Source: an uncultured Bdellovibrionales bacterium (GTDB taxonomy: Bacteria; Patescibacteriota; Minisyncoccia; Moranbacterales; UBA1568). Taken from it: 64,000 nt of DNA. The DNA is taken from positions 73,366 to 137,365 of the forward strand of contig CAZOKB010000001.1 in assembly GCA_964580285.1 (NCBI GenBank), written 5' to 3'. Shown piece by piece: positions 24,008 through 39,766 of the stretch. Under the pieces are notes generated by a model. The model was not told the origin of the DNA. It ran no database searches and was given only the letters and a program-made list of their open reading frames with translations. The translations under genes were made by a program, and so were the position numbers. Within the stretch, counting starts at the first letter, position 1; every line of letters starts with the position of its first letter.

Positions 24008-25138
24008 GTGTTAATGTTTCATGACAATATTGAGATTAAGAAAAGGCTTTTTACTGACTACTCATTGACGGAAAACACTATGGCATCAAAAAACACTAGC
24101 GTGGACAAAAAAACATTTTCTTATAAAGCAGCACTGGAGCTTCTTTTGGAGCGTCTGCCGGTGCGTTCACGCGAGATAGTAAAACTCCGCTTTGGTGTGA
24201 AGGACGGTAAGGTGCGGACATTGGAAGAAATTGGAAAGCAGTATGGCATTACGCGTGAGCGAGTACGCCAGGTTGTGGGGAGTGCTCTTACTCTGATTGC
24301 ATCACATAAGGAGTATCCGGAAGTCATCGAAATCACAGAACATATTCAGGCGGCTTTGGAAGAACGGAGCGGAGTCATGAAAGCGGATCATTTGATTGAA
24401 AAGCTTGCAGGTAAAGACGCCTCTGAACAAGGGGCTCTTTCGGTATTCTTAGAAAGTTTGCCTGCCTGTGGTACCGAGAAAGAAGATGAGAGTCGTGAGG
24501 AAGTATGTTTCCTGAACGGGTTTCTTTTTTCTGAGTGGAAAGAAATTCATGATGCTGTAGTGGCTATTCTCACGGCTTCCAAAGAAGCACTCTCGCTCGA
24601 AGAGTTGTATGGGCGCTTTGCGAAACAGGTGGAAGGTTTTTCTAAGGATCGTCTCCTGCATTTTTTGCTTATTTCGAAGTGTGTACAACAGAACGTCTTT
24701 GGGAAATGGGGTCTTTCTGAATGGAGTGAAATCAAACCTCGAGGGATGCGTGAAAAGGCACACTTAGTGCTCAAGACTTCGGCCCGGCCGCTGCACTTTC
24801 GTGACATTGCCAAGCTGATTGATGAATATGGTCTGCATGGAGCTAAGAAGAAAAAGAGTCATCCACAAACCGTACATAACGAACTCATCAAAGACCAGCG
24901 TTTTGTTTTAGTCGGTCGTGGAATCTATGCTCTTTCTGATTGGGGGTATACAAAAGGCACGGTGAAGGATGTGATTACGGATATTCTGCGAGAAGCTAAA
25001 GGACCGCTTTCGCGTGAAGAAATTCTCGAACGCGTACTCAAGATTCGTCAGGTGAAAAAATCAACGATTGTAATCAATTTGAATACGTATTTTGGTCGAG
25101 TAGGGAGGAATGCTTATACCCTCAAGGACAAAAAGTAG
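24008..25138 (+). CDS. sigma-70 region-4 (HTH) domain protein with a C-terminal extension
   Basis: SREIVKLRFGVKDGKVRTLEEIGKQYGITRERVRQV matches sigma70 region 4.2. The likely true start is the ATG at about 24080. Confidence 0.55.
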   Translation: MLMFHDNIEIKKRLFTDYSLTENTMASKNTSVDKKTFSYKAALELLLERLPVRSREIVKLRFGVKDGKVRTLEEIGKQYGITRERVRQVVGSALTLIASHKEYPEVIEITEHIQAALEERSGVMKADHLIEKLAGKDASEQGALSVFLESLPACGTEKEDESREEVCFLNGFLFSEWKEIHDAVVAILTASKEALSLEELYGRFAKQVEGFSKDRLLHFLLISKCVQQNVFGKWGLSEWSEIKPRGMREKAHLVLKTSARPLHFRDIAKLIDEYGLHGAKKKKSHPQTVHNELIKDQRFVLVGRGIYALSDWGYTKGTVKDVITDILREAKGPLSREEILERVLKIRQVKKSTIVINLNTYFGRVGRNAYTLKDKK

Positions 25139-26570: not shown

Positions 26571-28811
26571 ATGAGCATGCAAGATGACATTGCTTTTTTC
26601 GCCAAAACGAACTTCCGTAATCAGGAGCGGGTGTTTGGTATCAAGATGGACGACCGTCGCCGACACATGTATGTGATCGGGAAGACGGGTATGGGGAAAA
26701 CCAATCTCCTTGAGAACCTGGTGATTCAGGATATCCAAAAAGGCCACGGCGTGGCGTTTGTCGACCCGCATGGTGATACGGCCGAGAAACTGATCAAGGC
26801 TATCCCAGCCAATCGGATCAACGATGTGATCTATTTCAACCCGTCTGATCAGGATTTCCCGATCGCTTTTAACGTGATGGAAAAAGTAGGTCCGGAATAT
26901 CGGCACCTGGTGGCTTCCGGTTTGGTGGGTGTATTCAAAAAAATCTGGGCAGATTCGTGGGGACCTCGGCTTGAATATATTTTACGGAACGCTATTTTGG
27001 CGCTTCTCGAATACCCGGGGGCTACCCTCTTAGGGGTAACGCGTATTTTGGTAGACAAGGGCTATCGGGAACGAGTGGTAGAAAAGGTAACAGATCCGGT
27101 CGTGAAGAGTTTCTGGGTGGATGAGTTTTCCAAATGGAATGACCGTGTTCTTCAAGAGGTTATCTCGCCGATCCAGAACAAAGTTGGGCAGTTTCTTTCG
27201 AGCTCGCTCATCCGGAATATTGTAGGCCAGACCACATCCTCGTTCGATGTGCGTGCGGCTATGGATAGCCGGAAGATTCTCATTATGAACCTTTCAAAGG
27301 GGCGTATTGGAGAAGATAACAGCGCGCTCCTCGGGGCCATGATGATTACCAAGATCCAGCTCGCGGCTATGGGCCGGGTGGATATGCCAGAAGAAGATCG
27401 GGCAGATTTCTATCTCTATGTCGATGAGTTCCAGAATTTCGCTACGGAATCATTCGCGAATATTCTTTCTGAGGCGAGAAAGTATCACCTCAATCTCGTC
27501 TTGGCCAATCAGTACGTGACGCAGATTGATGAGAAAGTACGGGATGCTATTTTCGGTAATGCAGGCAGCATCATCGCGTTTCGGGTTGGGGCGACCGATG
27601 CGGAATTTCTTGAAAAAGAATTTGATCCTGTTTTTCTCATGAATGACATTGTTAATCTCCCTAAGTACCATATTTACCTCAAACTCATGATTGATGGTAT
27701 TGCGGGGGATGCTTTTAGTGCTGTTTCTCTTCCGCCGATCCGATTGGATCAGACTGAGGAAAACGCCGAAAAAGTCATTCGAATTTCTCGAGAACGGTAC
27801 GCTGCCAACAAAGGGGAAGTGGAAGATAAAATCCGTCGCTGGAGCGGCTTGTTAACGGAAGAGGAAAAAGCGGCGCTCTATAGTGGTGGTGCAGCAGAAC
27901 GACGTTCATTGGAACGACCAGCGCCCAGGGCGGTTCCTCGTCCGGCGGCTACTGTGCCGAAAAAATCAACCGTGATAAGTAGTCGGCCAGCGGCACGGCC
28001 AGTAACACCAGTGGCTGCTCCGCCGCGCCCAGTGACGCCGGTTCCAAAACCGATACCGCAAGCGGTGGTGCCCCAGAAACCCGCAAGGGAACCGGAAGTG
28101 TCGGTAGCCAAGGTTCAAGCGTCTGTACCGGTGCAGGCCGAGACACCCGTGGTTGCCTCGAACCCACTGATAGGTACTGAAGGAGTGAAAAAGGATGCCC
28201 CAACACCTGTTTTTGACCCACGGAAGTTTCAACCGAACCTCATCCGCTGGTCGGGTCATGAAGAGACGGCTAAGAAAAAAGAGGAAGCGCTGCAACAAGA
28301 AGAGCTAACCAATACACCGCCAGTTGAGGAGACAGTGGCGTCCAGCGTTACTCACGAGCCGGTACCGGTTATTGAAATACCAGAGTCAGAAGAAGTATCT
28401 TTGGCAGCAGCAGCGTCGGAGGCAGAGCGTGATGAAGTGCCTGAGAAGGTGTTGTATCCAGCAGCGTGCGCCACGTGCGGTATCGATATCGAGGTTCCGT
28501 TTGAGCCTGTACCGGGGCGCCCCACTTTCTGTAAAGACTGTCTGAAAGATTATCAGCGAGCGACGGCGAAGGCTCGTCGAGAAATGGAATCAAAACAGCA
28601 TCCAATGACTACGACTGCCTCTCTGACACGTTCGTGTACTCCGTCACAACGGCATATGCAGCCACAACGACATATACCGACAGAAGCACCAATGTCGCTC
28701 GCACAGATGCAGCATATCCAGCCGAAAAAATTCAAAACAATCCGTAAAAAACCGGATATTGATTTAGGGGATGTACGTTCGATGATTCAGGCTGTCAGAA
28801 AGGCTCAGTAG
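26571..28811 (+). CDS. TraD/VirD4/HerA-like (type IV coupling protein-like) P-loop ATPase with a Pro/Ala/Val-rich tail and C-terminal C4 zinc ribbon
   Basis: Walker A GKTGMGKTN. T4CP-like LYVDEFQNF...LVLANQY block. Tail repeats of PAARPVTPV. CATCG...CKDC near the C-terminus. Confidence 0.65.
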   Translation: MSMQDDIAFFAKTNFRNQERVFGIKMDDRRRHMYVIGKTGMGKTNLLENLVIQDIQKGHGVAFVDPHGDTAEKLIKAIPANRINDVIYFNPSDQDFPIAFNVMEKVGPEYRHLVASGLVGVFKKIWADSWGPRLEYILRNAILALLEYPGATLLGVTRILVDKGYRERVVEKVTDPVVKSFWVDEFSKWNDRVLQEVISPIQNKVGQFLSSSLIRNIVGQTTSSFDVRAAMDSRKILIMNLSKGRIGEDNSALLGAMMITKIQLAAMGRVDMPEEDRADFYLYVDEFQNFATESFANILSEARKYHLNLVLANQYVTQIDEKVRDAIFGNAGSIIAFRVGATDAEFLEKEFDPVFLMNDIVNLPKYHIYLKLMIDGIAGDAFSAVSLPPIRLDQTEENAEKVIRISRERYAANKGEVEDKIRRWSGLLTEEEKAALYSGGAAERRSLERPAPRAVPRPAATVPKKSTVISSRPAARPVTPVAAPPRPVTPVPKPIPQAVVPQKPAREPEVSVAKVQASVPVQAETPVVASNPLIGTEGVKKDAPTPVFDPRKFQPNLIRWSGHEETAKKKEEALQQEELTNTPPVEETVASSVTHEPVPVIEIPESEEVSLAAAASEAERDEVPEKVLYPAACATCGIDIEVPFEPVPGRPTFCKDCLKDYQRATAKARREMESKQHPMTTTASLTRSCTPSQRHMQPQRHIPTEAPMSLAQMQHIQPKKFKTIRKKPDIDLGDVRSMIQAVRKAQ

Positions 28812-30509: not shown

Positions 30510-31823
30510 ATGGATACTTTTCAAAATGAGAAAGAACCAATGAAAGAATCGATCAAGCCAGCTACTGCTTCTTCAGCGGCTTTCGATTGGGAGCGCCACA
30601 GCCGGTCTTCCTTGAAACTGTTTATGTTCCTTTTGGTGGCTGCCGTGTTTGGTTTCATTGGGGGAACCACGGCTCCTTTCTTTTCAGCTATGCTGAAACA
30701 GCACATGGCCACGCTCTCAACCGGAAAAGAAACATCAACTGGAGAACTTCCAAAACCAGGTCGTCAAGAAGTTTCTTCGCAAGATGATACTATCGTGGTG
30801 GATCTTGTAGGGCGTAATTCTCCAGGTGTCGTCAGTATTGTGATTACGAAAGACGTGCCAAAGGTACGGAATTTTTTCCAGAACCCGTTTTTCTTTGATC
30901 CATTTGGTAGTTCTTTCGGACAACAAAGAGGGTTGGGGGGCGGAGGAACAGAAAAGCAACAGGTAGGGAGTGGGTCCGGGTTTATTGTTTCGGAAGACGG
31001 TTTAGTGGTGACCAACCGGCATGTGGTGGTCGATGCAACAGCGGAGTATACCGTCATCACCAGTGATGGGAAGGAACATGCAGCGACGGTGCTCGCGCGT
31101 GATCCGAATAAAGATATCGCCGTACTTAAGATTGAAGGATCGAATCTGCCGGTACTTGATTTGGGGGATTCGGATACGGTGAAGGTGGGCCAGACGGTGA
31201 TTGCTATCGGGAATCCTTTAGGGGAATTTGCTAATTCCGTCACTCGCGGGATTATTTCTGGCGTAAAACGCGAGGTATATGCGGGCTCATCGAGGAGTGG
31301 TCAGTCTGAACAGCTTTCCGGAATTTTCCAGACGGATGCCGCTATTAATCCAGGGAATTCCGGTGGTCCACTTTTTAATTTGTCTGGTGAAGTGATTGGC
31401 GTAAATGTTGCGATGGCACAGGGGGCGGAAAATATCGCCTTTGCCCTGCCGATCAACCAAGTGAAGCGCGTTATTGATGAGGTGAAGACTACGGGGAAGA
31501 TTTCAACGCCCTATATTGGCGTGCGCTATCTGATTCTAGATGAAGCTATTGCGAAAGAGAATGGGCTACCGCTTGATCATGGTGCCTTAGTCATTCGTGG
31601 AGAAAAAATGACCGACTTCGCGGTGATTCCTGGTTCACCGGCGGATAAGGCGGGTATTGTTGAGAACGATATTCTCCTTGAGGTGAATGGTACGAAAATT
31701 GATGCACAGCATCAGCTCACAGACCTGATCGGGGACAAGCGTGTGGGGGATGAGATTACCTTGAAAGTGTGGCATAAAGGTGACGCCAAGGATGTAAAGC
31801 TCCGGCTTGAGGAGCGGAAGTAG
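30510..31823 (+). CDS. HtrA/DegP-family serine protease with C-terminal PDZ domain
   Basis: Catalytic triad contexts TNRHVV, DIAVLKI and GNSGGPL, plus a PDZ domain. Confidence 0.85.
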   Translation: MDTFQNEKEPMKESIKPATASSAAFDWERHSRSSLKLFMFLLVAAVFGFIGGTTAPFFSAMLKQHMATLSTGKETSTGELPKPGRQEVSSQDDTIVVDLVGRNSPGVVSIVITKDVPKVRNFFQNPFFFDPFGSSFGQQRGLGGGGTEKQQVGSGSGFIVSEDGLVVTNRHVVVDATAEYTVITSDGKEHAATVLARDPNKDIAVLKIEGSNLPVLDLGDSDTVKVGQTVIAIGNPLGEFANSVTRGIISGVKREVYAGSSRSGQSEQLSGIFQTDAAINPGNSGGPLFNLSGEVIGVNVAMAQGAENIAFALPINQVKRVIDEVKTTGKISTPYIGVRYLILDEAIAKENGLPLDHGALVIRGEKMTDFAVIPGSPADKAGIVENDILLEVNGTKIDAQHQLTDLIGDKRVGDEITLKVWHKGDAKDVKLRLEERK

Positions 31824-31866
31824 CGGAAAAGAGAATAGAGAATAGGGAATATTGAATAGTGGGATA

Positions 31867-31892
31867 AAGAGGCTTTTTAAAGCCTCTTTTAG
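31867..31892 (+). terminator. hairpin terminator after htrA (AAGAGGCT-ttttaa-AGCCTCTT, then TTTT)
   Basis: Perfect 8-bp inverted repeat at 31867-31888 followed by a short T-run. Confidence 0.55.
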
Positions 31893-31894
31893 TA

Positions 31895-31923
31895 TTGACA
31901 AAAATATGTAAATATGCTATTTT
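31895..31923 (+). promoter_or_regulatory. sigma70-like promoter of the island (TTGACA, 17 nt spacer, TGcTATTTT)
   Basis: Consensus -35 at 31895-31900 and extended -10 at 31915-31923. It is followed by a ~90 nt 5'-UTR with inverted repeats CTTGATC/GATCAAG and TGTGC/GCACA. Confidence 0.45.
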
Positions 31924-32014
31924 CTCTTGATCCCTGAGTCTGTGCATGGGGCACAATAACTCTTTGTGATCAAGCCGTTCTTTGGCAAATCAACCCTTCT
32001 TTAGGAGAAATACC

Positions 32015-32662
32015 ATGGCAAAAGCTGCCACTCAAGTACAAGACTCCCTCAAGCGCGTCATGCTGACCCTCGAGGGCATCCGGCCGCTCCTCATCAATAC
32101 CATGACGCCGTTTGAAGTCATGGCGCTGAACAAAGATCTTGCGCCGGACGCTGTCAACAAGGTGAAGGCATTGAAGCAGATGACACTGCCCGAGCAGATC
32201 AAGGTGAAGTACGAGCTCTGGCGCGATCCGGAAACCGGCAAGGTCGGCATTTGGTCGCACATGCTCTACGCTGCTCTGGTCGGCGCCGGCAAGTTCATCA
32301 AGTACGAGGGCAACATGAAGCTCTCGACTTCGAAGAGTTCGCTCGTGCCGAGTTTCCTTACCATCGTCGATGAACACCTACCCTTCGTTGATCAGGGTTC
32401 GGACGGGAAGGGAACGCCGTATACGGACGACTACCGGCGTGGCGAGGCCAATCAGGGCAGCGGTGCCGTGTGCGTCGCTCGTCCCATGATCGGAAGCGGC
32501 TGGCGGGTCGGTGTGGATATCGAGGTGGAGACCACTCTTCTCGATCTCGTCCGTACCCGCGAGCTCTTCGACAAGGCGGGGCGCATGTCTCGCTTGGGCT
32601 CTTTCCGCACCAAGGCTGACTTCGGGATGTTCCGGGTCGCCGAGTGGGAAGTGATGAACTAA
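32015..32662 (+). CDS. hypothetical protein (215 aa) and first gene of the GC3-rich island, of unrecognised family
   Basis: ATG at 32015 preceded by AGGAGA. Strongly GC3-biased codons unlike the flanking genes. Confidence 0.6.
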   Translation: MAKAATQVQDSLKRVMLTLEGIRPLLINTMTPFEVMALNKDLAPDAVNKVKALKQMTLPEQIKVKYELWRDPETGKVGIWSHMLYAALVGAGKFIKYEGNMKLSTSKSSLVPSFLTIVDEHLPFVDQGSDGKGTPYTDDYRRGEANQGSGAVCVARPMIGSGWRVGVDIEVETTLLDLVRTRELFDKAGRMSRLGSFRTKADFGMFRVAEWEVMN

Positions 32663-32674
32663 TATCACTCACGC

Positions 32675-34918
32675 AACTGCGGCGACTTCGGTTGCCGCAG
32701 TTCTCAAGTGTATTTGCAAGAGTATACTTGAGACTCTGCTTTTGAAAGAGAGCAGGGTATAGAGAGTATAGCAATGTATTCTTGTGCTACATTCGGTTTC
32801 GCGGATTTTTGTTTTGGATCGATCCTCTGCTTCAGCACGATCGATCATCTTATAAGGATTCGCAAGAGTTTTTATAAGACTTCGCTTTCGAAAAAGAGTG
32901 AAGCGAAAGATGCAGTTGTGTCGTATGCTGAGCTGTTAGGTATTTTGACCCAGTGTCCTTTATTGGCTCGTACCTCTATGAAAATATGCACGAGCATCTA
33001 AAGCATTTTGGTGACAGAATGTTTTGGACAATCTCTTCGTAAGAGGGGATTGTAATGTTGTTATGCAGCGCCGTGTGTTCTTCTTTCCTATACTTTCGCG
33101 TATCCTAGTGGACCGAGCCTCTCCACCAACGCTCGGTCATCCCTGAATACTTTCAAGAAGAGAGTATTGAGGACAACATCCTCGCAAGAGGGGGTTGTAC
33201 AGTAGTTTCGACTTAAGCTAAGCGTTGTTCTTTGACCTAATTTCCACAAGTGTTCTGGACTGAGCCTCTCCGTCAATGACGGACGCTCGGTCATCCTAAG
33301 CGCTTTTGTGAAAGAGTGTTTAGGACAGCATCCTCGTAAGAGGGGGTTGTGAAGTGTAAGTTCGGACTTGTAAAATTACGCAGTCCAAACTCCGCACGAG
33401 TTCTTTATATTACTGGAGCGAACCTCTCCGCCCAAGGCGGACGTTCGCTCGCTGTTCGCGGGATGTATGTCTCGCCTGATGAGCCGGAAACGGCGAAAAC
33501 AGTCGTTCTTTGATACGGTATCCTACCGTAGAGCTAACAGAAGTTATCCTAATTCGCTTCCTGTTTTGGCTCGTACCTCTGCTTTGGTACGTACGAGCAC
33601 CTTAAATATATTGGGAACAGTGTATTTAAGGCATCATCTTCGAAAAAGGATGATGTACTGGGTAGTGTTGGGTCTCGTCAAGCAACGAAAAGTTACCTTG
33701 GATCCTTTCCTGGATCAGCCCTCTGCCTCGGTACGACTGATCATCTTATGAGTATTCGCAAGAGTGTTCATAAGACTCTTCTCTTGGAAGAGAGTAGAGT
33801 GATTCCAGTTACATCCAGTTACGTACTGCTCTCCGTCGTAGTTTATGTTTCTGGCTCGCACCTCTGCTTCGGTACGTACGAGCATCCAAAGCATTTTAGA
33901 AACAGAATGTTTTGGACAATTTTCTTGGAAGAGAAAATTGTGAAGGGAATAATCTCCTATACCGTTGCGCAACGTACGGTCATGTAGCGTAGCGTAATGG
34001 ACCGAGTCTCTGTATAAATTCATACACGCTCGGTCATCTTATGAATATTTGCAAGAGTGTTCATAAGACTCTGCTTTCGAAAGAGAGCGGGGTACAGTAG
34101 TGTGCCGTCATGCATAGTGCAGTAATGTTTTTTACTGGCTCGTATCTCTGTGCAAGCATGTACGAGCAACTTAAATGCATTGTAAGCAGTGTATTTAAGA
34201 CTTCGCTTTCGCAAGAGAGTGAGGTGAAAGATGCAGTTTTGTCGCATGCTGTGTTGTTAGGTATTTTTATCTAGTGTCCTTTATTGGCTCGTGCCTCTAC
34301 TTCGGCACGCACGAGCACCTTAAACGCATTTACAGAAGTGTGTTTAAGACTTTGCTTTCGAAAGAAAGTAAGGTGTACCAATCTCGTAGCGTGTGGCATA
34401 GTTTTCTTCGGATCGGTGCTTTATTCTAAAGGCTCGCATCTCTCTGTTTCGGCGGATGTGTGAGCATCTTAAGTGCATTTGCAAAAGTGTATTTAAGACT
34501 TCGCTTTCGCAAGAGAGCAGAGTATTTCTGTAAAGCACTGTGGCGTACTGTGGCGTGAACTTCTTTGGACTGAATTGGAGCGGTCTGAATTGCTGGCTTG
34601 CGTCTCTGCGAAAGTACGCGCGAGCACCAAAAGTATTTTGGTAACAGAATATTTTGGGTATTATCTTCGCAAGAGGGTGATACTTGTAGATACGTATTCT
34701 CCGGTCCTGAACTGTGTGTTAAATCAATGCAATGGCTCGTACCTCTCTGTTTCGGCAGACGTACGAGCATCCTGAATATTTTCGAAAAGAGAATATTGAG
34801 GACAATCTCTTCGCAAGAGGGGGTTGTCATAGTAGCATCGTGTTGAGCTAGGTCATCTAGTGCACGTGTATAGTAAATTACTGGACCGAGCCTCTTCGTT
34901 AATGACGAACGCTCGGTC
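32675..34918 (+). repeat. tandem array of about 16 degenerate structured-RNA modules with ~146-nt period. Each module is hairpin E1 (5' stem arm then CCTCT), hairpin E2 (10-bp AT-rich stem), GNRA-tetraloop hairpin E3 (CYYYC-GNAA-GAGRG then GGGKTGT), then a ~50-nt variable linker
   Basis: E1 starts at 32675, 32817, 32965, 33110, 33257, 33415, 33568, 33712, 33853, 33998, 34137, 34285, 34430, 34595, 34733, 34882. Stems covary (GGCTCGTAC/GTACGAGC, GGACCGAGC/GCTCGGTC, GGAGCGAAC/GTTCGCTC, GGCTCGTGC/GCACGAGC, GGATCGATC/GATCGATC). ORFs in the region are repeat translations. Confidence 0.7.
33450..33504 (+). ncRNA. type III hammerhead ribozyme HHR-1, with predicted self-cleavage 3' of C33457
   Basis: Stem III CGCUGUU/AACAGUG. 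GUC-like site UUC, cleaved after it. Stem I GCGGG-atgtatgt-CTCGC. Core CUGAUGA at 33476-33482. Stem II GCCG-GAAA-CGGC, then GAAA at 33495-33498. Confidence 0.8.
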
Positions 34919-35018
34919 GCTGTCGGTAGGTGTGTGCCTATCCTGATGAGCCCAGCACTTACATCATCCGATTCATTGATGGTGTAAGTGCATTCCGTAA
35001 GTGCTGGGCGAAACAGCG
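34918..35018 (+). ncRNA. type III hammerhead ribozyme HHR-2, with predicted cleavage 3' of C34924, ending 30 nt upstream of the helicase start codon (in its 5'-UTR)
   Basis: Stem III CGCUGU/ACAGCG (6 bp). Cleavage site GUC at 34922-34924, cleaved after it. Stem I GGUAGG-ugugug-CCUAUC. CUGAUGA at 34943-34949. 12-bp stem II CCCAGCACUUAC/GUAAGUGCUGGG with a 34-nt loop. GAAA at 35010-35013. Confidence 0.85.
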
Positions 35019-35048
35019 TCATGGTTCATTTCCAAGAGGAGTTTGCAC

Positions 35049-36839
35049 ATGCAAACACATATCATGCAGTTTTTCCCGTACGAGAAGTACGAGCAGCCGA
35101 CAGCGCTGCAGGAAACAGCACTTGCCTTTATCGGCGAAAACGCTTCTTTTGGCCCCGTCGTCACTGAGCTCCCCACCGGGACCGGCAAGACCGCCATTGG
35201 CATCGCGTATTTGCGCGCCATGAGTCAGCCGAAACGTGTGAACTTCTACCTGGTTTCGAACAAAGTGCAGGCAGAGCAGGTGAAGTTGATGCACCCCGAG
35301 GTTGAAATCATGCTCGGCCGAAGCGAGCATCAGTGTCTCTATTACGAAGGTGAACAGGTGAACGCGGAAGAGATTCCGTGCATGGCTCTCAAGGACTGTC
35401 CGCATCGTGTGCACCAGCAAAGCGGCGAGACGCATACACTGGGCGCGATTCCGTGTCCGTACCTCAAGCAGAAGTACGACACGAAAAGTGCTCAGATCGT
35501 TGTTGCGACGGTCCCGTTTTATCTCTGCGCTGTTTTCTTCGGGAAGCAGTACGACGTGGGGGCTGTGGTGGTTGACGAGGCGCATAATATCGCCAAGATC
35601 GTGCGTGGGAGCTTGTCGCACCGTCTCTCCAATCACAAGTTGGAGCGGATGATCGGCGTGCTCGAACACTCAGGTTTCGGCGACGAAGCGGAAACGCTCG
35701 GACAGTTCCTCAAGCTGGTGCGTTCTACGATCACAAGGAATAAGAAACAAGAACGTTCGACGCTCGGGACGACGGAAGTGGAGAAGCTGCTTGGGACTTT
35801 GCGCGGGATTGATCGACGCAAGATTGAGGAAGCGATGTATGCTTCGCTCAAGCAGGGTATTCTCAATCCGGTGAGCGACCGCGATCTCTTGAAGCAATTC
35901 GAGGTGCTCTCGCGGGATCTCAAACGTTACATCAACTCGCTGGAGTTCTCTTTGCCGCAGGGTGATCATAAGCCGCTTGCGTATGCGTTTGGGTATCTGG
36001 ATCCGGAGTACGAGGACGGGAAGAAAGACTTTGCACTGGTGATCAAGAATTATCATGTCGCTGGTCTCATCCACCACATGCTTCCGGAGAAGACACTCGC
36101 GTACTCGGCAACCATCGGCGACGCGGAATGTTTCGGTTTTGAAACCGGGCTGCGTGGCGCGTTCACTTCACTTGAGTCGGAATTTGCTCATGAGAAGACG
36201 CGTATCTATATGCCGACCGACACGCAGGATCTTGCGTACGACAGTCGTGGTAATCGCGATGTAGCACGTTCGCTCCGGCTTGTAGCGCGTAGTGTCGCCA
36301 AGTTCAACATGCAAGGGTTGCGATCGCTCGTGGTGCTCGTATCTGAAGACGAACGGCAGCGGTTCTTGCGGATGTGTCCGGAAGCAGAACTAAACGGCGG
36401 AGCTCTTGAAGCTGTTTCGTACGGCAAAGGGGTGACAGCACGGGAAGCCGCGGTGCGGTTTAAGGATGGCGTTGGCGATGTGCTTGTGGGGACGGTGTCG
36501 CAGTACGGCGAGGGGGTTGATCTCCCGAATCGCATTGCACCGGTCATTTTTTATCTCCGACCGGCCTATCCCAATCCCTATGAACCGGAAGCGCAGTTTG
36601 AAGCTAGTCGGTACGGATCGCGCCGGTTTGCGGTTTGGAACTGGCGGGTGATGAACGATCTTCTGCAAGTGCGAGGGCGCAATATCCGCTCGGTGAATGA
36701 CGAAGGGGTCACCTTTCTCATTTCCCAGCAGTTTCGCAAGTTCGCCCGCCCGACACTTCCGAAGTGGCTCCTGCCGGCGTACGTGGCCGACAAGAGTATG
36801 GAAGAGTGCGTGGATGACGCGATGCGACTTCTCGTTTAA
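35049..36839 (+). CDS. DinG/XPD (Rad3)-family FeS-cluster DEAH-box helicase
   Basis: Motif I LPTGTGKT. Four-cysteine FeS insertion (HQCLYY...CMALKDCP...CPY). Motif II VVDEAHN. Strong SD AAGAGGAG 7 nt before ATG 35049. GC3-rich like the island ORF. Confidence 0.75.
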   Translation: MQTHIMQFFPYEKYEQPTALQETALAFIGENASFGPVVTELPTGTGKTAIGIAYLRAMSQPKRVNFYLVSNKVQAEQVKLMHPEVEIMLGRSEHQCLYYEGEQVNAEEIPCMALKDCPHRVHQQSGETHTLGAIPCPYLKQKYDTKSAQIVVATVPFYLCAVFFGKQYDVGAVVVDEAHNIAKIVRGSLSHRLSNHKLERMIGVLEHSGFGDEAETLGQFLKLVRSTITRNKKQERSTLGTTEVEKLLGTLRGIDRRKIEEAMYASLKQGILNPVSDRDLLKQFEVLSRDLKRYINSLEFSLPQGDHKPLAYAFGYLDPEYEDGKKDFALVIKNYHVAGLIHHMLPEKTLAYSATIGDAECFGFETGLRGAFTSLESEFAHEKTRIYMPTDTQDLAYDSRGNRDVARSLRLVARSVAKFNMQGLRSLVVLVSEDERQRFLRMCPEAELNGGALEAVSYGKGVTAREAAVRFKDGVGDVLVGTVSQYGEGVDLPNRIAPVIFYLRPAYPNPYEPEAQFEASRYGSRRFAVWNWRVMNDLLQVRGRNIRSVNDEGVTFLISQQFRKFARPTLPKWLLPAYVADKSMEECVDDAMRLLV

Positions 36840-36860
36840 TTTGGATCAGCTGATCCAATT

Positions 36861-36890
36861 GGCCTACTACTAAAATAGTAGGCCTTTTTC
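36861..36890 (+). terminator. rho-independent terminator of the island (GGCCTACTA-ctaaaa-TAGTAGGCC then TTTTT)
   Basis: Perfect 9-bp stem followed by a T-run, 22 nt after the helicase stop. Confidence 0.75.
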
Positions 36891-36901
36891 TTTTTCCTAA
36901 A

Positions 36902-36928
36902 TTAGCACTCTAGTACTGAGATTGCTAA
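36902..36928 (+). promoter_or_regulatory. CIRCE element (HrcA operator) upstream of clpB
   Basis: TTAGCACTC-N9-GATTGCTAA matches the consensus TTAGCACTC-N9-GAGTGCTAA with one mismatch. Confidence 0.65.
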
Positions 36929-37117
36929 TTTTTTATTGTGGTGATAGAGTAGTAATAAGAAAGATGGAGTACGGAGAAGGGAATAGATGCTATTTCAAGC
37001 GGGTCGATACATCTTCATCATGAAGAGAAAACGCAGATCCCTCGACAAGCTCGGGATGACAGATCAAAGGAATTTTATTCTTAAATCAAAAATCTTATAT
37101 CTTAAATCTTTTTTCTT

Positions 37118-39766
37118 ATGAACATCAACAAATTCACTACTAAAAGTCAGGAGGCGCTCCGGCACGCACAGGAGATTGCTTTGTCACGCAATAATCCGCA
37201 GATGGAGATCGCGCATCTTCTTTATGCGCTCCTCATGCAGGAAGATTCTATTGTGCCGGTGGTGATCGGAAAGTTAGGGATAGATATCGAGGTGGTACGA
37301 GGAGCCGTGCTGGATGAGATTGATAAGTTCCCGCGGGCTGAATCTGGGGCGATCGGCCAATTGTATCTGGCTCCGCATTTGGCACAGGTCTTTGCTGAGG
37401 CTGAAAAAGAAATGCAGAAAATCGGCGATACGTTTGTTTCGACGGAACACTTGCTGTTAGCTGTACTCTTGGTGCCGAGTCATGTGAAGTCGGCTCTTGA
37501 AAGTATGCAGGTGCGGTACGATGTCGTCTTGACGATGCTTAAGGAGGTGCGCGGTAATCAACGGGTGGAGAGTCAAGAACCGGAACAAACTTATCAAGCG
37601 CTGGAAAAATATGCCCTTAATCTTACCAAGCAGGCACGCGAAGAAAAGCTGGATCCTGTGATCGGTCGGGATGAAGAAATTCGCCGGGTGATGCAGGTCC
37701 TGTCACGGCGCACGAAGAATAATCCGGTACTGATCGGTGAGGCGGGTACGGGGAAGACGGCAATCGCGGAGGGTTTGGCGCAGCGGATCGTTTCGGGTGA
37801 TGTTCCCGAAAGTCTTAAGGAAAAAGAAATTATTTCGCTCGACTTAGGGGCGCTCTTGGCGGGAGCCAAGTTCCGAGGAGAATTTGAAGAACGCTTGAAA
37901 GCCATTCTGAAAGAGGTAGAGCGTTCAGCAGAGCGGTTCATTCTCTTTATCGATGAAATCCATACGCTCGTGGGGGCGGGAGCGACCGATGGAGCGCTGG
38001 ACGCTTCGAATATGCTGAAGCCGGCTTTGGCTCGAGGAAAGCTTCGGACGATTGGTGCTACTACGCTGAAGGAATATCAAAAATATATTGAGAAAGACGC
38101 GGCGTTTGAGCGGCGTTTTCAGCCGGTGTTTGTGAGTGAACCTTCAGAAGAGGACGCTATCGCTATTCTTCGGGGCATTAAGGAAAAGTATGAATTGCAT
38201 CATGGTGTGAAGATAGATGATGATGCGCTGATTGCAGCGGTGCGTTTATCACGCCGCTATATCAGTGACCGCTTCCTTCCGGACAAGGCTATCGACCTGA
38301 TTGATGAAGCTGCTTCGCTTCGGCGCATGGAAATTGATTCGATGCCGGAAGATTTGGATCAGTTGGAGCGGAATATCCGTCGACTGGAAATTGAGAAACG
38401 GGCGTTGGAAAAAGAGCGCGAGGCATCAGCCAAAAAGAAGATTGCTGCTATCAACCGGGAACTTTCTGAATTACGGGAACGCAGCCAGAAATTTTCTCTG
38501 CAATGGAAAGCGGAACGTGAACTGATCGCGGCTATACGGGCGCGTAAGGAAGAACTGGACCGCTACCGTTCGGAAGCGGATAGTGCTGAGCGGCGAGGCG
38601 AACTGGATCGGGTCGCGGAGATTCGCTATGGATTGATTCCTGAAACTGAGAAAAAGATGCGAGCGGAGGAAAAGAAGCTGGAAGGTTTGCAACAGTCAGG
38701 ATCCATCTTGCGGGAAGAGATTACGGAGGAAGAAATAGCGGCGGTGGTCTCGCGCTGGACGGGGGTACCTATAAAGAAGATGCTTGCAGGAGAAGAAGAA
38801 AAGCTGGTGTATATGGAAAAGGCTCTGCAAGAACGGGTGATCGGGCAGGATGATGCCATCCGTGTCGTTGCACAGGCGATTCGGCGTTCCCGGACCGGTC
38901 TGTCGGAAGAAGGTCGGCCGATTGGATCTTTTATGTTCCTCGGTATGACGGGTGTTGGAAAAACGGAGCTGGCTAAGGCGCTGGCGGCCTTCCTCTTTGA
39001 TGATGAACGGGCGTTGGTGCGGGTAGATATGAGTGAATACATGGAAGCGCATGCCACGGCCAAACTGATTGGATCACCTCCGGGGTATGTGGGGCACGAT
39101 GAGGGAGGACAGTTGACGGAGACGATTCGTCGGCGGCCGTATAGCGTGATCCTGTTTGATGAAATTGAAAAAGCCCATCCAGAAGTTTTCAATATTTTCT
39201 TGCAGATTCTGGATGATGGCCGGCTCACCGATGCCAAAGGGCGGGTGGTGAATTTCAAGAATAGTGTCATTATCATGACGTCGAATGTCGGCTCCGATGT
39301 TCTGCTGAGGATGCAGGCACTTGGTTTCCAGGGGGAGCGCAAAGATCGGGATGATCCACGAGAAGAAGATATGAAGTCGAAAATTATGGCCAGCTTGAAA
39401 GAAACATTTCGGCCGGAGTTTTTGAACCGTATTGACGAGATCGTGGTCTTTCATCCGCTTTCGAAGCAGGCGATTCGGAATATTGTGGATGCTGAATTGA
39501 AAAAATTGGATCGTCGACTTGCGGTACAAGAGATTCGTATAGAATGGCCAGAGAGCGTGCGGAAGCACTTGGCAGAAAAGGGGTATGATCCGCTCTACGG
39601 TGCGCGGCCGCTCAAGCGGGTGATACAGAACGATATTCTTGATGTACTGGCTCTGGATATCCTGGAGAAAAAATGGGAGGCCGGCCGATGGCTTCGGGCT
39701 TCAGTAGAGAAGGGGCGAATAGCTTTCGGGGTACGCCGTCCGATTCAAAAGAGGAAAAAGATCTAA
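37118..39766 (+). CDS. clpB: ATP-dependent chaperone ClpB
   Basis: Clp N-domain, NBD1 (GEAGTGKTA), long coiled-coil middle domain, NBD2 (GMTGVGKTE) and the ClpB C-terminus. Confidence 0.9.

What the first reader, a model, noticed from the sequence alone, without database searches (positions are those of the whole stretch)
33450..33504. Complete type III hammerhead ribozyme (HHR-1) embedded in the array
All conserved hammerhead core nucleotides are present in the correct topology. The 6-bp stem III (CGCUGUU pairing with AACAGUG) closes around the cleavage site UUC, with cleavage predicted after C33457. Stem I is GCGGG-loop-CTCGC. CUGAUGA is at 33476-33482. Stem II is GCCG-GAAA-CGGC with G10.1-C11.1. 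GAAA is at 33495-33498 with A15.1 pairing U16.1. The ribozyme directly follows a type-B E1 hairpin, whose 3' arm abuts stem III.
Basis: partly seen in the sequence, partly recalled or inferred. Interest (0 to 1): 0.75.

Follow-up and report, generated by a model that had tools for sequence, protein, structure and literature searches.

The report
Hammerhead ribozyme inside a VIPR guide-RNA array
The flagged 53-nt sequence is very probably a genuine self-cleaving hammerhead ribozyme that cuts up a long precursor carrying about 15 guide RNAs of a VIPR system (a CRISPR-like RNA-guided system first described in a 2026 preprint), here in a Patescibacteria-type bacterial chromosome.

Summary
Positions 33451-33503 (+) carry every hammerhead core nucleotide in type III topology, with predicted cleavage after C33457. 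A descriptor scan finds only this site and a second one (34918-35018) in the whole window. Rfam's Hammerhead_3 model scores it at 27 bits, below its 48.5-bit threshold. A covariance model built only from 32 homologous hammerheads at other loci scores it at 73.6 bits (E 5e-21). Across 35 homologues, 97% of stem positions pair and 14 of 16 pairs show compensatory changes.

The context explains it. The upstream 215-aa protein is a Vipr-family RAMP (profile E 5e-15 to the SUSP1 Vipr structure; Cas7-like predicted fold). The "array" is 15 vrRNA units. Each has 8-11 pentanucleotide NGY/NN repeats followed by a conserved E1 hairpin, and then either two further hairpins or a hammerhead. A DinG-like helicase gene follows the array.

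"Hammerhead ribozyme-interspersed" VIPR arrays were already reported in bioRxiv 10.64898/2026.04.26.720920. This is therefore a new member of a known, very recent kind, not a new mechanism.

Two side results look undescribed. The same hairpin-plus-hammerhead cassette recurs in Patescibacteria, also between ordinary genes. It is often followed by a GTTCTTTGA-like motif.

The parts
31895..31923 (+). Promoter-like site (TTGACA-17-TATTTT, with TG) upstream of vipr; the likely start of a single vipr-array-helicase transcript
   Evidence: Best sigma-70 match in 31700-37200, 10 of 12 positions. It follows a terminator-like hairpin at about 31868-31892. Function is inferred.
32015..32662 (+). vipr gene (215 aa), a Vipr-family RAMP protein; AGGAG ribosome-binding site at 32003-32007
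   Evidence: No Pfam, NCBIfam or PADLOC hit. A family profile (A2, 42 sequences) hits PDB 36pp_D 'SUSP1 Vipr protein' at E 5.4e-15 over 193 of 206 profile positions. The AF2 model (pLDDT 85.6) matches Cas7, Csm3 and Cmr4 at Foldseek probability 1.0. HMMER finds 409 cluster representatives at E<=1e-3.
32673..32758 (+). Leader module: a plain GC hairpin plus E2 and E3 hairpins, with no pentamer tract, directly after the vipr stop codon
   Evidence: RNAfold (unit 1). The same element follows vipr in L001, L002, L006 and L011.
32775..34917 (+). vrRNA array of 15 units, about 139-164 nt apart. Each unit is 8-11 pentamers (NGY/NN), then the E1 hairpin, then E2+E3 hairpins. E1 has an 8-bp outer stem, a 5' CUC bulge and an inner stem-loop. 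In the two hammerhead units a hammerhead replaces E2+E3. E1 'TGG' anchors: 32815, 32964, 33109, 33256, 33414, 33567, 33711, 33852, 33998, 34136, 34285, 34430, 34594, 34733, 34882
   Evidence: Repeat families. Per-unit folds. Period-5 signal in the 50 nt upstream of each anchor: phase 3 is a pyrimidine in 92% (G 0 of 150), phase 2 is G in 55%, chi-square 253.8 against a shuffle maximum of 36. E2 and E3: 15 of 23 pairs show compensatory changes over 24 copies.
33353..33413 (+). Pentamer (guide) tract of the vrRNA whose 3' end HHR-1 would generate
   Evidence: Lies between the E3 hairpin of unit 5 (its last paired base is 33350) and the E1 anchor at 33414. The 5' boundary is approximate.
33416..33450 (+). 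E1 hairpin (type B), the conserved 3' handle of the vrRNA, abutting stem III of HHR-1
   Evidence: RNAfold. The outer stem GGAGCGAAC/GUUCGCUC is identical in the L001 orthologue.
33451..33503 (+). HHR-1, a type III hammerhead; predicted scissile bond between C33457 and G33458
   Evidence: See the observation check.
33506..33514 (+). GTTCTTTGA motif just downstream of HHR-1; function unknown
   Evidence: A G[T/A]TCTTT[G/A]A-like motif lies within 25 nt downstream of 17 of 46 Patescibacteria hammerheads, against 4.4% background.
34884..34918 (+). E1 hairpin (type B) of the last vrRNA unit
   Evidence: RNAfold.
34918..35018 (+). HHR-2, a type III hammerhead with a 52-nt insertion in stem II; predicted cleavage after C34924; it ends 30 nt before the helicase start codon
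   Evidence: RF00008 34.0 bits, E 1.6e-4. Found by the descriptor scan. The L001 orthologue 2019-2073 has a short stem II (39.5 bits). The hammerhead fold is the minimum-energy fold for 34882-35024, but an alternative stem II pairing wins with slightly longer flanks.
35049..36839 (+). Accessory (vap-like) gene: a DinG/Rad3-family helicase of 596 aa; AGGAG ribosome-binding site at about 35037
   Evidence: Pfam Helicase_C_2 and DEAD_2. PADLOC typeIV_DinG (CAS-IV-A associated), E 1.8e-33, full length. Encoded next to vipr in the window, L001, L006-L009 and L011.
36861..36894 (+). Intrinsic terminator-like hairpin with a T-run that ends the operon

Best explanation
HHR-1 is a functional type III hammerhead ribozyme that belongs to a VIPR (Viral Interference Programmable Repeat) locus in a Patescibacteria-type chromosome.

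One promoter (about 31895) probably drives a transcript of about 5 kb: vipr mRNA, 15 vrRNA units, then the DinG-like helicase mRNA. This is inferred.

Each vrRNA is a tract of 8-11 pentamers (NGY/NN, a variant of the published GGY/NN code) followed by the conserved E1 hairpin handle. Between vrRNAs sits one of two alternative 'punctuation' modules: two stable hairpins (E2+E3) or a hammerhead.

HHR-1 folds right behind E1 and cleaves after C33457. This leaves the upstream vrRNA ending in E1-GCUGUUC with a 2',3'-cyclic phosphate. The ribozyme body stays on the 5' end of the next vrRNA. HHR-2 does the same after the last vrRNA and thereby frees the helicase mRNA.

By analogy with the published SUSP1 system, Vipr protomers would then coat the pentamer tract and guide DNA recognition, with the helicase acting as effector.

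Shown here: the sequence, the structure, its conservation and the locus identity. Inferred: co-transcription, cleavage, ribonucleoprotein formation and targeting.
For: Core and helices are present, and only 2 such sites occur in 64 kb against 0.067 expected.

The family-specific covariance model gives 73.6 bits, E 4.6e-21.

Covariation over 35 distinct sequences: 97.1% of cells pair, against 37-48% in the slid controls. Stem I has 6 of 6 pairs with compensatory changes, stem II 3 of 4, and stem III 5 of 6.

An unbiased retrieval supports this. The pattern CTGATGAGNNNGAAANNNCGAAAACAG constrains no stem complementarity. It gave 26 matches in 16 loci of 185,579 species genomes, and 14 of the 16 loci are from MAGs with Patescibacteria-lineage names. 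All 25 matches I checked against the descriptor carry complete stems I-III; the 26th, at the end of contig L014, shows stem I and the 5' strand of stem III by eye.

Orthologous hammerheads sit at the same two positions in L001, where vipr is 81% and the helicase 82% identical. They carry compensatory changes: stem I G-C to A-U and stem II C-G to U-A.

More distant vipr-array-helicase loci (L006-L009, L011; Vipr about 30% identical) also carry several hammerheads in the array.

VIPR identity rests on the Vipr profile hit at E 5.4e-15, the RAMP fold, the pentamer periodicity and the adjacent helicase.

Literature: bioRxiv 10.64898/2026.04.26.720920 describes vrRNAs as a pentamer tract plus a structured 3' tail. 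[quoted passage not shown]
Against: No cleavage assay or RNA-seq exists for this locus.

Rfam RF00008 is below its gathering score (27 against 48.5).

Only 2 of the 16 inter-unit positions in the window carry a hammerhead. Most vrRNAs must therefore mature some other way, and HHR-1 may not be essential for guide maturation.

My covariation set was filtered for pairing, which inflates the percentage paired. The pattern-only retrieval partly answers this.

The VIPR type, and whether Patescibacteria loci were in the published set, could not be checked because the figures and data tables are not held.

The target search under the published 1-nt-skip rule was inconclusive.
Confidence: 0.85

Rival explanations
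1. The hairpin-plus-hammerhead unit is a general Patescibacteria transcript-punctuation cassette, not a dedicated guide-maturation device. In this locus it only splits the long transcript into blocks (array half 1, array half 2, helicase mRNA), for example to set differential stability or to uncouple helicase translation. The individual vrRNAs would be matured by host RNases or by Vipr itself at the E2/E3 modules.
For: The same cassette lies between small protein-coding ORFs, with no vipr or helicase within the 8-kb locus, in L016; L010 and L012-L025 also carry the hammerhead without vipr or helicase nearby. Only 2 of 16 junctions in the window have a hammerhead. HHR-2 sits exactly at the array/helicase-mRNA boundary. 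L006 has a hammerhead in front of a downstream small ORF.
Against: In L011, 7 of 10 junctions of the upstream array are hammerheads, so there the ribozyme does delimit single vrRNAs. The VIPR preprint shows hammerheads between adjacent vrRNAs and reports sRNA-seq support. The two views are compatible rather than exclusive.
Confidence: 0.3
2. HHR-1 is a decayed or inactive relic: a sequence that keeps the consensus but no longer cleaves, retained only as a structured spacer equivalent to E2+E3.
For: Some family members carry non-canonical 10.1/11.1 pairs: U-U in L009:7151 and L011:3219, and A-C in L001:2019. Hammerhead and E2+E3 occupy the same slot, so mere structure might suffice.
Against: HHR-1 itself has a fully canonical core. 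The core columns are invariant across 35 sequences while the stems vary freely. Loop 1 keeps U15, G16 and U17, and loop 2 keeps GAAA. This is the pattern of purifying selection on catalysis and on the loop-loop contact, not on hairpins alone.
Confidence: 0.07
3. Chance match: the motif arose by accident in a structured, repeat-rich region.
For: A single descriptor hit occurs in about 6% of shuffled windows. The Rfam score is below threshold.
Against: There are two hits at equivalent positions behind type-B E1 hairpins. Orthologues exist in L001, L006, L009 and L011. The family covariance model gives E 4.6e-21, and there is strong covariation.
Confidence: 0.01
4. The locus is a degenerate or atypical type IV-A CRISPR-Cas system, and the array is a CRISPR array.
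For: The helicase's best defence-library match is type IV-A DinG/Csf4, E 1.8e-33. The small protein has a Cas7-like fold.
Against: There are no short, near-identical direct repeats. The units are only 60-80% alike and are long structured modules. The variable parts are pentamer-periodic, not free spacers. There is a single RAMP gene and no Csf1, Csf3 or Csf5. The protein profile matches Vipr, not any Cas family model.
Confidence: 0.03

Closest known systems
VIPR systems with hammerhead ribozyme-interspersed vrRNA arrays (bioRxiv 10.64898/2026.04.26.720920, also PMC13142463; companion cryo-EM preprint 10.64898/2026.04.26.720927)
   Same: A single Vipr RAMP gene. A long intergenic array of RNAs, each made of a pentanucleotide tandem-repeat tract followed by a conserved structured 3' part. 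One accessory gene, here a helicase; the paper reports helicases or nucleases in types III-V. Hammerheads lie between vrRNAs (fig. S19, types I and V). The pyrimidine at the third conserved position matches the purine-excluding pocket described in the companion paper; here it is Y in 92% with G never seen.
   Different: The consensus here is NGY/NN rather than GGY/NN: the first G is not conserved and the second is G in only 55%. The 3' handle is a bulged hairpin (E1), not the SUSP1 pseudoknot tail. Hammerhead and a two-hairpin module (E2+E3) alternate in the same slot, which the text I could read does not mention. The locus sits among housekeeping genes (HtrA, PPIase, ClpB) of a Patescibacteria-like chromosome, and the helicase is conserved across that lineage. 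The type could not be assigned.
Type III hammerhead ribozymes (Rfam RF00008 Hammerhead_3)
   Same: All 11 core nucleotides plus A15.1-U16.1 and H17. Three helices with an open stem III. Closed stems I and II. The hammerhead fold is the minimum-energy fold.
   Different: Very compact: a 5-6 bp stem I with a 6-8 nt UGU-containing loop, and a 4-bp stem II with a GAAA tetraloop. UUC is the usual cleavage triplet. Scores are only 26-40 bits on RF00008 (gathering score 48.5), so this clade is not captured by Rfam's threshold.
Bacterial and phage hammerheads within polycistronic transcripts (Perreault et al. 2011, PLoS Comput Biol; recalled from memory, not checked here)
   Same: Several hammerheads in intergenic positions of one operon, suggesting that a polycistronic RNA is cut into pieces.
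   Different: As I recall, those are mostly type II and prophage-associated. Here they are type III and coupled to an upstream hairpin. No paper in the searchable library mentions hammerhead ribozymes together with Patescibacteria; the only two that pair 'hammerhead' with 'candidate phyla radiation' are one RNA-polymerase domain study, as preprint and journal version.
CRISPR pre-crRNA processing by Cas6, and type IV-A CRISPR-Cas with a DinG helicase
   Same: A multi-guide precursor is cut at a conserved structured element next to each guide. A RAMP backbone protein works with a DinG-family helicase effector.
   Different: The cutter is the RNA itself, not a Cas6 protein. The guides are gapped pentamer tracts. 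No adaptation genes and no other Cas proteins are present.
Engineered ribozyme-flanked guide RNAs (RGR design; recalled from memory)
   Same: A hammerhead is placed next to a guide RNA to define its end from a longer Pol transcript.
   Different: In the engineered design the hammerhead is 5' of the guide and removes itself. Here the hammerhead is 3' of the guide's handle and stays on the next RNA. This one is natural, not engineered.

Membership tests
Hammerhead ribozyme, type III | Conserved catalytic core: C3 U4 G5 A6 N7 G8 A9, G12 A13 A14, A15.1-U16.1, and H17 not G | tested here: met
   CUGAUGA at 33476-82, GAAA at 33495-98, U33456-A33498, C33457. These core columns are invariant in 35 homologues.
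Hammerhead ribozyme, type III | Three helices around the core, stems I and II closed by loops, stem III open | tested here: met
   Descriptor hit. The RNAfold minimum-energy structure equals the hammerhead junction, z = -3.57.
Hammerhead ribozyme, type III | Helices supported by covariation in homologues | tested here: met
   97.1% of cells pair. 14 of 16 pairs have changes on both sides. Slid controls give 37-48%. Caveat: the sequence set was filtered for pairing.
Hammerhead ribozyme, type III | Rfam RF00008 gathering score (48.5 bits) | tested here: not met
   27.0 bits, E 0.016, as a local match to model positions 7-48. Not listed at gathering threshold. A clade-specific covariance model gives 73.6 bits.
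Hammerhead ribozyme, type III | Site-specific self-cleavage giving 2',3'-cyclic phosphate and 5'-OH ends | not testable with these tools
   Needs in vitro transcription or end-specific RNA-seq.
Hammerhead ribozyme, type III | Loop I-loop II tertiary contact for activity at low Mg2+ | tested here: inconclusive
   Loop 1 U15, G16 and U17 and the loop 2 GAAA are at least 90% conserved. This is consistent with a contact but does not prove one.
VIPR system | Vipr protein, a minimal RAMP homologue | tested here: met
   Profile A2 against PDB 36pp_D SUSP1 Vipr, E 5.4e-15. The single window sequence alone gives no PDB hit. The AF2 model (pLDDT 85.6) matches Cas7, Csm3 and Cmr4 at probability 1.0.
VIPR system | vrRNA with tandem pentanucleotide repeats (GGY/NN or a related consensus), 9-16 units | tested here: met
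   8-11 pentamers per unit. Phase 3 is Y in 92% (G 0 of 150), phase 2 is G in 55%. Chi-square 253.8 against a shuffle maximum of 36. This is a related consensus (NGY/NN), not strict GGY.
VIPR system | Conserved structured 3' tail after the repeat tract | tested here: met
   The E1 hairpin follows every tract. E2 and E3 covary. The shape differs from the SUSP1 pseudoknot.
VIPR system | Minimal locus: vipr plus one accessory (vap) gene acting on DNA | tested here: met
   A DinG/Rad3-like helicase is adjacent. The same pairing occurs in 7 loci. The neighbouring genes are housekeeping genes.
VIPR system | Vipr-vrRNA ribonucleoprotein recognising DNA by the 1-nt-skip rule | tested here: inconclusive
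   One 20-of-20 NN exact match in IMG/VR (L026:6407-6435), against 0 for a permuted control and 0 for another vrRNA. An 18-base pattern gave 3 hits, near chance. The skip bases fall on codon position 1, not on the wobble position as published.
VIPR system | Assignment to one of types I-VII | not testable with these tools
   The classification is in figures and data files that are not held.
CRISPR-Cas type IV-A | CRISPR array of short near-identical direct repeats with unique spacers, plus Csf1, Csf2, Csf3 and Csf5 | tested here: not met
   Units are 60-80% identical long modules. There are no Cas family hits except a DinG-like helicase.

The most novel reading that the evidence does not exclude
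The [hairpin]-[compact type III hammerhead]-[GTTCTTTGA] cassette may be a lineage-wide RNA 'punctuation' system of Patescibacteria. It would be used both between ordinary genes and inside VIPR arrays, and it is missed by Rfam thresholds.

The vipr-array-DinG operon, conserved among Kaiserbacteria/Paceibacteria-type genomes and lying among housekeeping genes, may be a domesticated chromosomal RNA-guided system. Its guides would be separated by two interchangeable modules, a ribozyme or an E2+E3 hairpin pair. That would imply a second, still unknown, protein-dependent processing route and possibly a function beyond phage-phage conflict.
Probability: 0.3. Interest if true: 0.65.

Novelty: new member of a known kind. 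Interest (0 to 1): 0.45.

Why it matters
The result shows that a reader working from sequence alone correctly spotted a natural ribozyme. It also ties that ribozyme to VIPR, an RNA-guided DNA-recognition system proposed in 2026 as older than CRISPR.

Natural self-processing multi-guide arrays are directly useful as compact multiplex guide-expression designs.

This locus adds a Patescibacteria, helicase-associated example with 15 guides. It is a ready-made comparison of ribozyme and non-ribozyme junctions within one array. It also comes with a clade of more than 40 compact hammerheads that current Rfam thresholds miss.

The mechanism has already been described in a preprint, so the surprise value for a specialist is moderate.

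Tried and rejected
- Rfam at gathering threshold found only a tRNA.
- blastn of the array against 50,697 phage records gave no match.
- The Vipr alignment was used to scan genome contigs and metagenome contigs. Nothing was confirmed, probably because the back-translated peptide patterns were too specific to the close clade.
- I considered a phage origin because the genes are mostly on the + strand. I rejected it: the neighbours are HtrA, PPIase, ClpB and DUF5656, and the helicase homologues are named Kaiserbacteria, Paceibacterota or Patescibacteria.
- I considered TIGR-Tas arrays and a type IV-A CRISPR. I set TIGR-Tas aside from memory, because I recall those guides as about 36 nt and Nop-domain associated, which does not fit a 146-nt structured unit. 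I rejected type IV-A after the repeat analysis and the Vipr hit.
- I considered E2+E3 as another ribozyme or a decayed hammerhead. They have no conserved single-stranded core and no Rfam hit, and they are plain covarying hairpins with tetraloops.
- Target search with the published 1-nt-skip rule in IMG/VR used 4 scans, including one permuted control. There was one perfect 20-of-20 hit, but in the wrong codon phase and at about 0.1 expected by chance. I treat this as inconclusive.
- The VIPR preprint's supplements held as text contain no taxon or accession lists, so the type and prior inclusion of this clade could not be checked.
Full report
**1. The observation**

The sequence at 33450-33504 (+) reads CGCUGUUC|GCGGGAUGUAUGUCUCGC CUGAUGA GCCGGAAACGGC GAAA ACAGUC.
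- CUGAUGA at 33476-82.
- Stem II GCCG-GAAA-CGGC, with G10.1-C11.1.
- GAAA at 33495-98, with A15.1 (33498) paired to U16.1 (33456).
- C17 at 33457.
- Stem I GCGGG/CUCGC.

Two details are wrong. The 3' strand of stem III is AACAGUC, not AACAGUG. Stem III is therefore the 6 bp 33451-33456 with 33498-33503. C33450 is the last paired base of the preceding E1 hairpin (33416-33450).

RNAfold's minimum-energy structure for 33410-33512 is exactly E1 followed by the hammerhead three-way junction (-43.7 kcal/mol, z = -3.57).

A descriptor scan I wrote required the core, U16.1, H17, stem I of at least 4 bp, stem II of at least 3 bp and stem III of at least 4 bp. It finds exactly two sites on both strands of the 64-kb window: this one and 34918-35018. 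In 300 dinucleotide shuffles the mean was 0.067 per window, and only 2 shuffles had two or more hits.

**2. The Rfam test**

At gathering thresholds the window has only a tRNA. In E-value mode RF00008 (Hammerhead_3) gives 27.0 bits (E 0.016) for HHR-1 and 34.0 bits (E 1.6e-4) for the second site, against a gathering score of 48.5.

I do not accept it as a refutation. A covariance model built from 32 such hammerheads of other loci, excluding the window and its close relative L001, scores HHR-1 at 73.6 bits, E 4.6e-21, end to end. HHR-2 matches that model only partially (22.9 bits), because its stem II carries a 52-nt insertion.

**3. Comparative evidence**

The upstream 215-aa protein has only four close homologues. 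One of them lies on a 4.7-kb contig (L001) with the same layout. It has hammerheads at the two equivalent positions, 1299-1353 and 2019-2073. Relative to the window, HHR-1 shows G-C to A-U in stem I and C-G to U-A in stem II.

The downstream helicase is widespread in Patescibacteria. In the more distant loci L006-L008, L009 and L011, a roughly 200-aa protein about 30% identical to the window protein sits upstream. Several hammerheads lie in the intergenic array between that gene and the helicase gene.

I also scanned 185,579 species genomes with the pattern CTGATGAGNNNGAAANNNCGAAAACAG, which constrains no helix complementarity.
- It returned 26 matches in 16 loci, and 14 of the 16 loci come from MAGs with Patescibacteria-lineage names.
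- All 25 matches I checked against the descriptor have complete stems I, II and III.
- The 26th match, at the end of contig L014, shows stem I and the 5' strand of stem III by eye.

On an ungapped alignment of 35 distinct sequences, the covariation counts are as follows.

| Measure | Result |
|---|---|
| Cells forming a standard pair | 97.1% |
| Same, with partners slid 1-3 columns | 37-48% |
| Stem I pairs with changes on both sides | 6 of 6 |
| Stem II pairs with changes on both sides | 3 of 4 |
| Stem III pairs with changes on both sides | 5 of 6 |
| All pairs with changes on both sides | 14 of 16 |

The core columns, loop-1 U15/G16/U17 and the loop-2 GAAA are invariant or nearly so. The set was filtered for pairing, which inflates the percentage paired. 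The pattern-only retrieval shows that the pairing is not an artefact of that filter.

**4. What the array is**

The region 32664-35020 contains 16 modules spaced 139-164 nt apart. Fifteen of them consist of the following parts:
- A variable stretch of about 40-55 nt.
- The E1 hairpin: an 8-bp outer stem, a 5' CUC bulge and an inner stem-loop.
- Either two further hairpins or a hammerhead. The hairpins are E2 (13 bp) and E3 (11 bp), both with stable tetraloops. The hammerhead replaces them in units 6 and 16.

E2 and E3 covary over 24 copies from four loci, with 15 of 23 pairs showing compensatory changes.

The "variable" stretch is not free sequence. Read in register with the E1 anchor, it is a run of pentamers. 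Phase 3 is a pyrimidine in 92% (T 76%, G 0 of 150) and phase 2 is G in 55%. The chi-square is 253.8, against a maximum of 36 in 2,000 shuffles.

**5. The proteins**

The 215-aa protein has no Pfam, NCBIfam or PADLOC hit. An exhaustive HMMER search finds 409 cluster representatives at E<=1e-3. A profile of 42 members hits one solved structure, 36pp_D "SUSP1 Vipr protein", at E 5.4e-15 over nearly the full length. The AlphaFold model (pLDDT 85.6) matches Cas7-type RAMPs (type VII Cas7, Csm3, Cmr4) at Foldseek probability 1.0.

The downstream 596-aa protein is a DinG/Rad3-family helicase. Its best defence-library match is type IV-A DinG, E 1.8e-33.

The best promoter-like site lies upstream of vipr (31895-31923). 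The best terminator lies after the helicase (36861-36894). This suggests one operon.

**6. Literature**

The PDB name led to bioRxiv 10.64898/2026.04.26.720920 (also PMC13142463) and its cryo-EM companion 10.64898/2026.04.26.720927. These describe VIPR systems as follows:
- A minimal RAMP protein, Vipr.
- vrRNAs made of 9-16 pentamers (GGY/NN "or a related consensus", including YNNNG or NNNGG variants) followed by a conserved structured 3' tail.
- One accessory gene, which is a nuclease or helicase in types III-V.
- DNA recognition by the NN dinucleotides with a 1-nt skip.

[quoted passage not shown] S20). The companion paper describes a pocket that excludes purines at the Y position, which fits the 92% pyrimidine, 0% G result here.

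The window locus meets every VIPR feature I could test. I could not assign the type or check whether Patescibacteria loci were in the published set. No paper in the library mentions hammerhead ribozymes together with Patescibacteria. The only two that pair "hammerhead" with "candidate phyla radiation" are one RNA-polymerase domain study, as preprint and journal version.

**7. Mechanism**

Shown here: the ribozyme's sequence, fold and conservation; its position directly 3' of the E1 handle; and the identity of the locus.

Inferred:
- The operon is transcribed as one precursor.
- HHR-1 cleaves after C33457. The upstream vrRNA then ends in E1-GCUGUUC with a 2',3'-cyclic phosphate, and the next RNA starts with the ribozyme body.
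- HHR-2 cleaves after C34924 and separates the array from the helicase mRNA, whose start codon is 30 nt past the ribozyme.
- Vipr coats the pentamer tracts.

Only 2 of the 16 junctions in the window are ribozymes, compared with 7 of 10 in L011. The E2+E3 junctions must therefore be handled differently, or not cut at all.

The same hairpin-plus-hammerhead cassette lies between small ORFs in loci without vipr, such as L016. So the ribozyme is probably a general Patescibacteria punctuation device that VIPR arrays also use.

**8. Rivals**

Chance is excluded. An inactive relic is unlikely, given the invariant core against freely varying stems. A type IV-A CRISPR is excluded by the repeat structure and the gene content. 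The "general punctuation" reading is compatible with the main explanation and is kept at 0.3.

**9. Target search**

Under the published 1-nt-skip rule, results were as follows:
- The tract at about 33948-33997 gave one perfect 20-of-20 match in IMG/VR (L026:6407-6435).
- A permuted control gave none.
- Another tract gave none.
- An 18-base pattern gave three hits, which is near the chance expectation.

In the L026 hit the skip bases fall on codon position 1, not the wobble position. I treat this as inconclusive.

**10. Verdict**

The element is a new member of a kind first reported in a 2026 preprint. Interest is moderate (0.45).

The parts I did not find in the text I could read are:
- The alternation of ribozyme and E2+E3 modules in the same slot.
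- The Patescibacteria-wide cassette with its downstream GTTCTTTGA-like motif.
- The conserved chromosomal pairing of vipr with a DinG-like helicase.

Noticed in passing
window 33506-33514 and 31977-31985; downstream of hammerheads in L001, L006, L009-L014, L016-L019 and L025: A G[T/A]TCTTT[G/A]A-like motif lies within 25 nt downstream of 17 of 46 Patescibacteria hammerheads, against 4.4% of random 25-mers. A similar GTTCTTTGG sits in the vipr 5' leader. Its function is unknown; a leader, ribosome or RNase signal is possible.
   Followed up: partly
L017:366-1472 (-), MAG JBDHUT010000011.1, Candidatus Paceibacteria: Three identical hammerheads sit 526 nt apart inside a perfect tandem repeat. This is the layout expected for a DNA-encoded unit-length or circular RNA, like a retrozyme or satellite. 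It is not near any vipr gene.
   Followed up: no
window 34950-35009 (stem II of HHR-2): The 52-nt insertion contains GUAAGUGC twice, so AGCACUUAC can pair with either copy. The hammerhead fold and a fold that disrupts the base of stem II are nearly isoenergetic (-60.6 against -60.9 kcal/mol in slightly different sequence windows). This could be a switch controlling release of the helicase mRNA. The L001 orthologue has a plain 4-bp stem II.
   Followed up: partly
L009:7151-7205, L011:3219-3273, L001:2019-2073: Hammerheads with a non-canonical 10.1/11.1 pair: U-U in two unrelated loci and A-C in L001 HHR-2. The recurrence of U-U suggests a tolerated or deliberately slow variant.
   Followed up: no
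L006:8000-8300 and L011:5880-6530: In these related loci, further vrRNA-like units and hammerheads lie downstream of the helicase gene. In L006 the last one sits directly before a 62-aa ORF. The window has a terminator at that position instead.
   Followed up: partly
window 32807-32978 vs 34128-34299: A 172-nt stretch covering a tail plus the next pentamer tract is duplicated at 77% identity (family D6). The array therefore grows by segmental duplication and divergence, and the differences include the NN positions. This is not CRISPR-like spacer acquisition.
   Followed up: partly
L026:6407-6435 (IMGVR_UViG_3300045988_157634, 132.8-kb viral contig): A perfect 20-of-20 match to the NN dinucleotides of the vrRNA tract at window 33948-33997 under the published 1-nt-skip rule. 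It lies inside a 67-aa ORF. The expected count is about 0.1 and a permuted control gave 0 hits. The skip bases fall on codon position 1.
   Followed up: partly
window 35049-36839: The helicase next to the array is conserved at 42-50% identity across many Kaiserbacteria, Paceibacterota and Patescibacteria genomes. Its best defence-library match is the type IV-A CRISPR DinG. This parallels RAMP-plus-DinG interference in type IV-A systems.
   Followed up: partly
window 26571-28811 and 24008-25138: Upstream genes include a TraG/VirD4/HerA-like ATPase with a treble-clef zinc finger (PADLOC mad8-like, E 5e-17) and a sigma-70 region-4 plus RNA polymerase delta-like fusion protein. Whether they mark a mobile or defence region next to the VIPR locus was not examined.
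   Followed up: no
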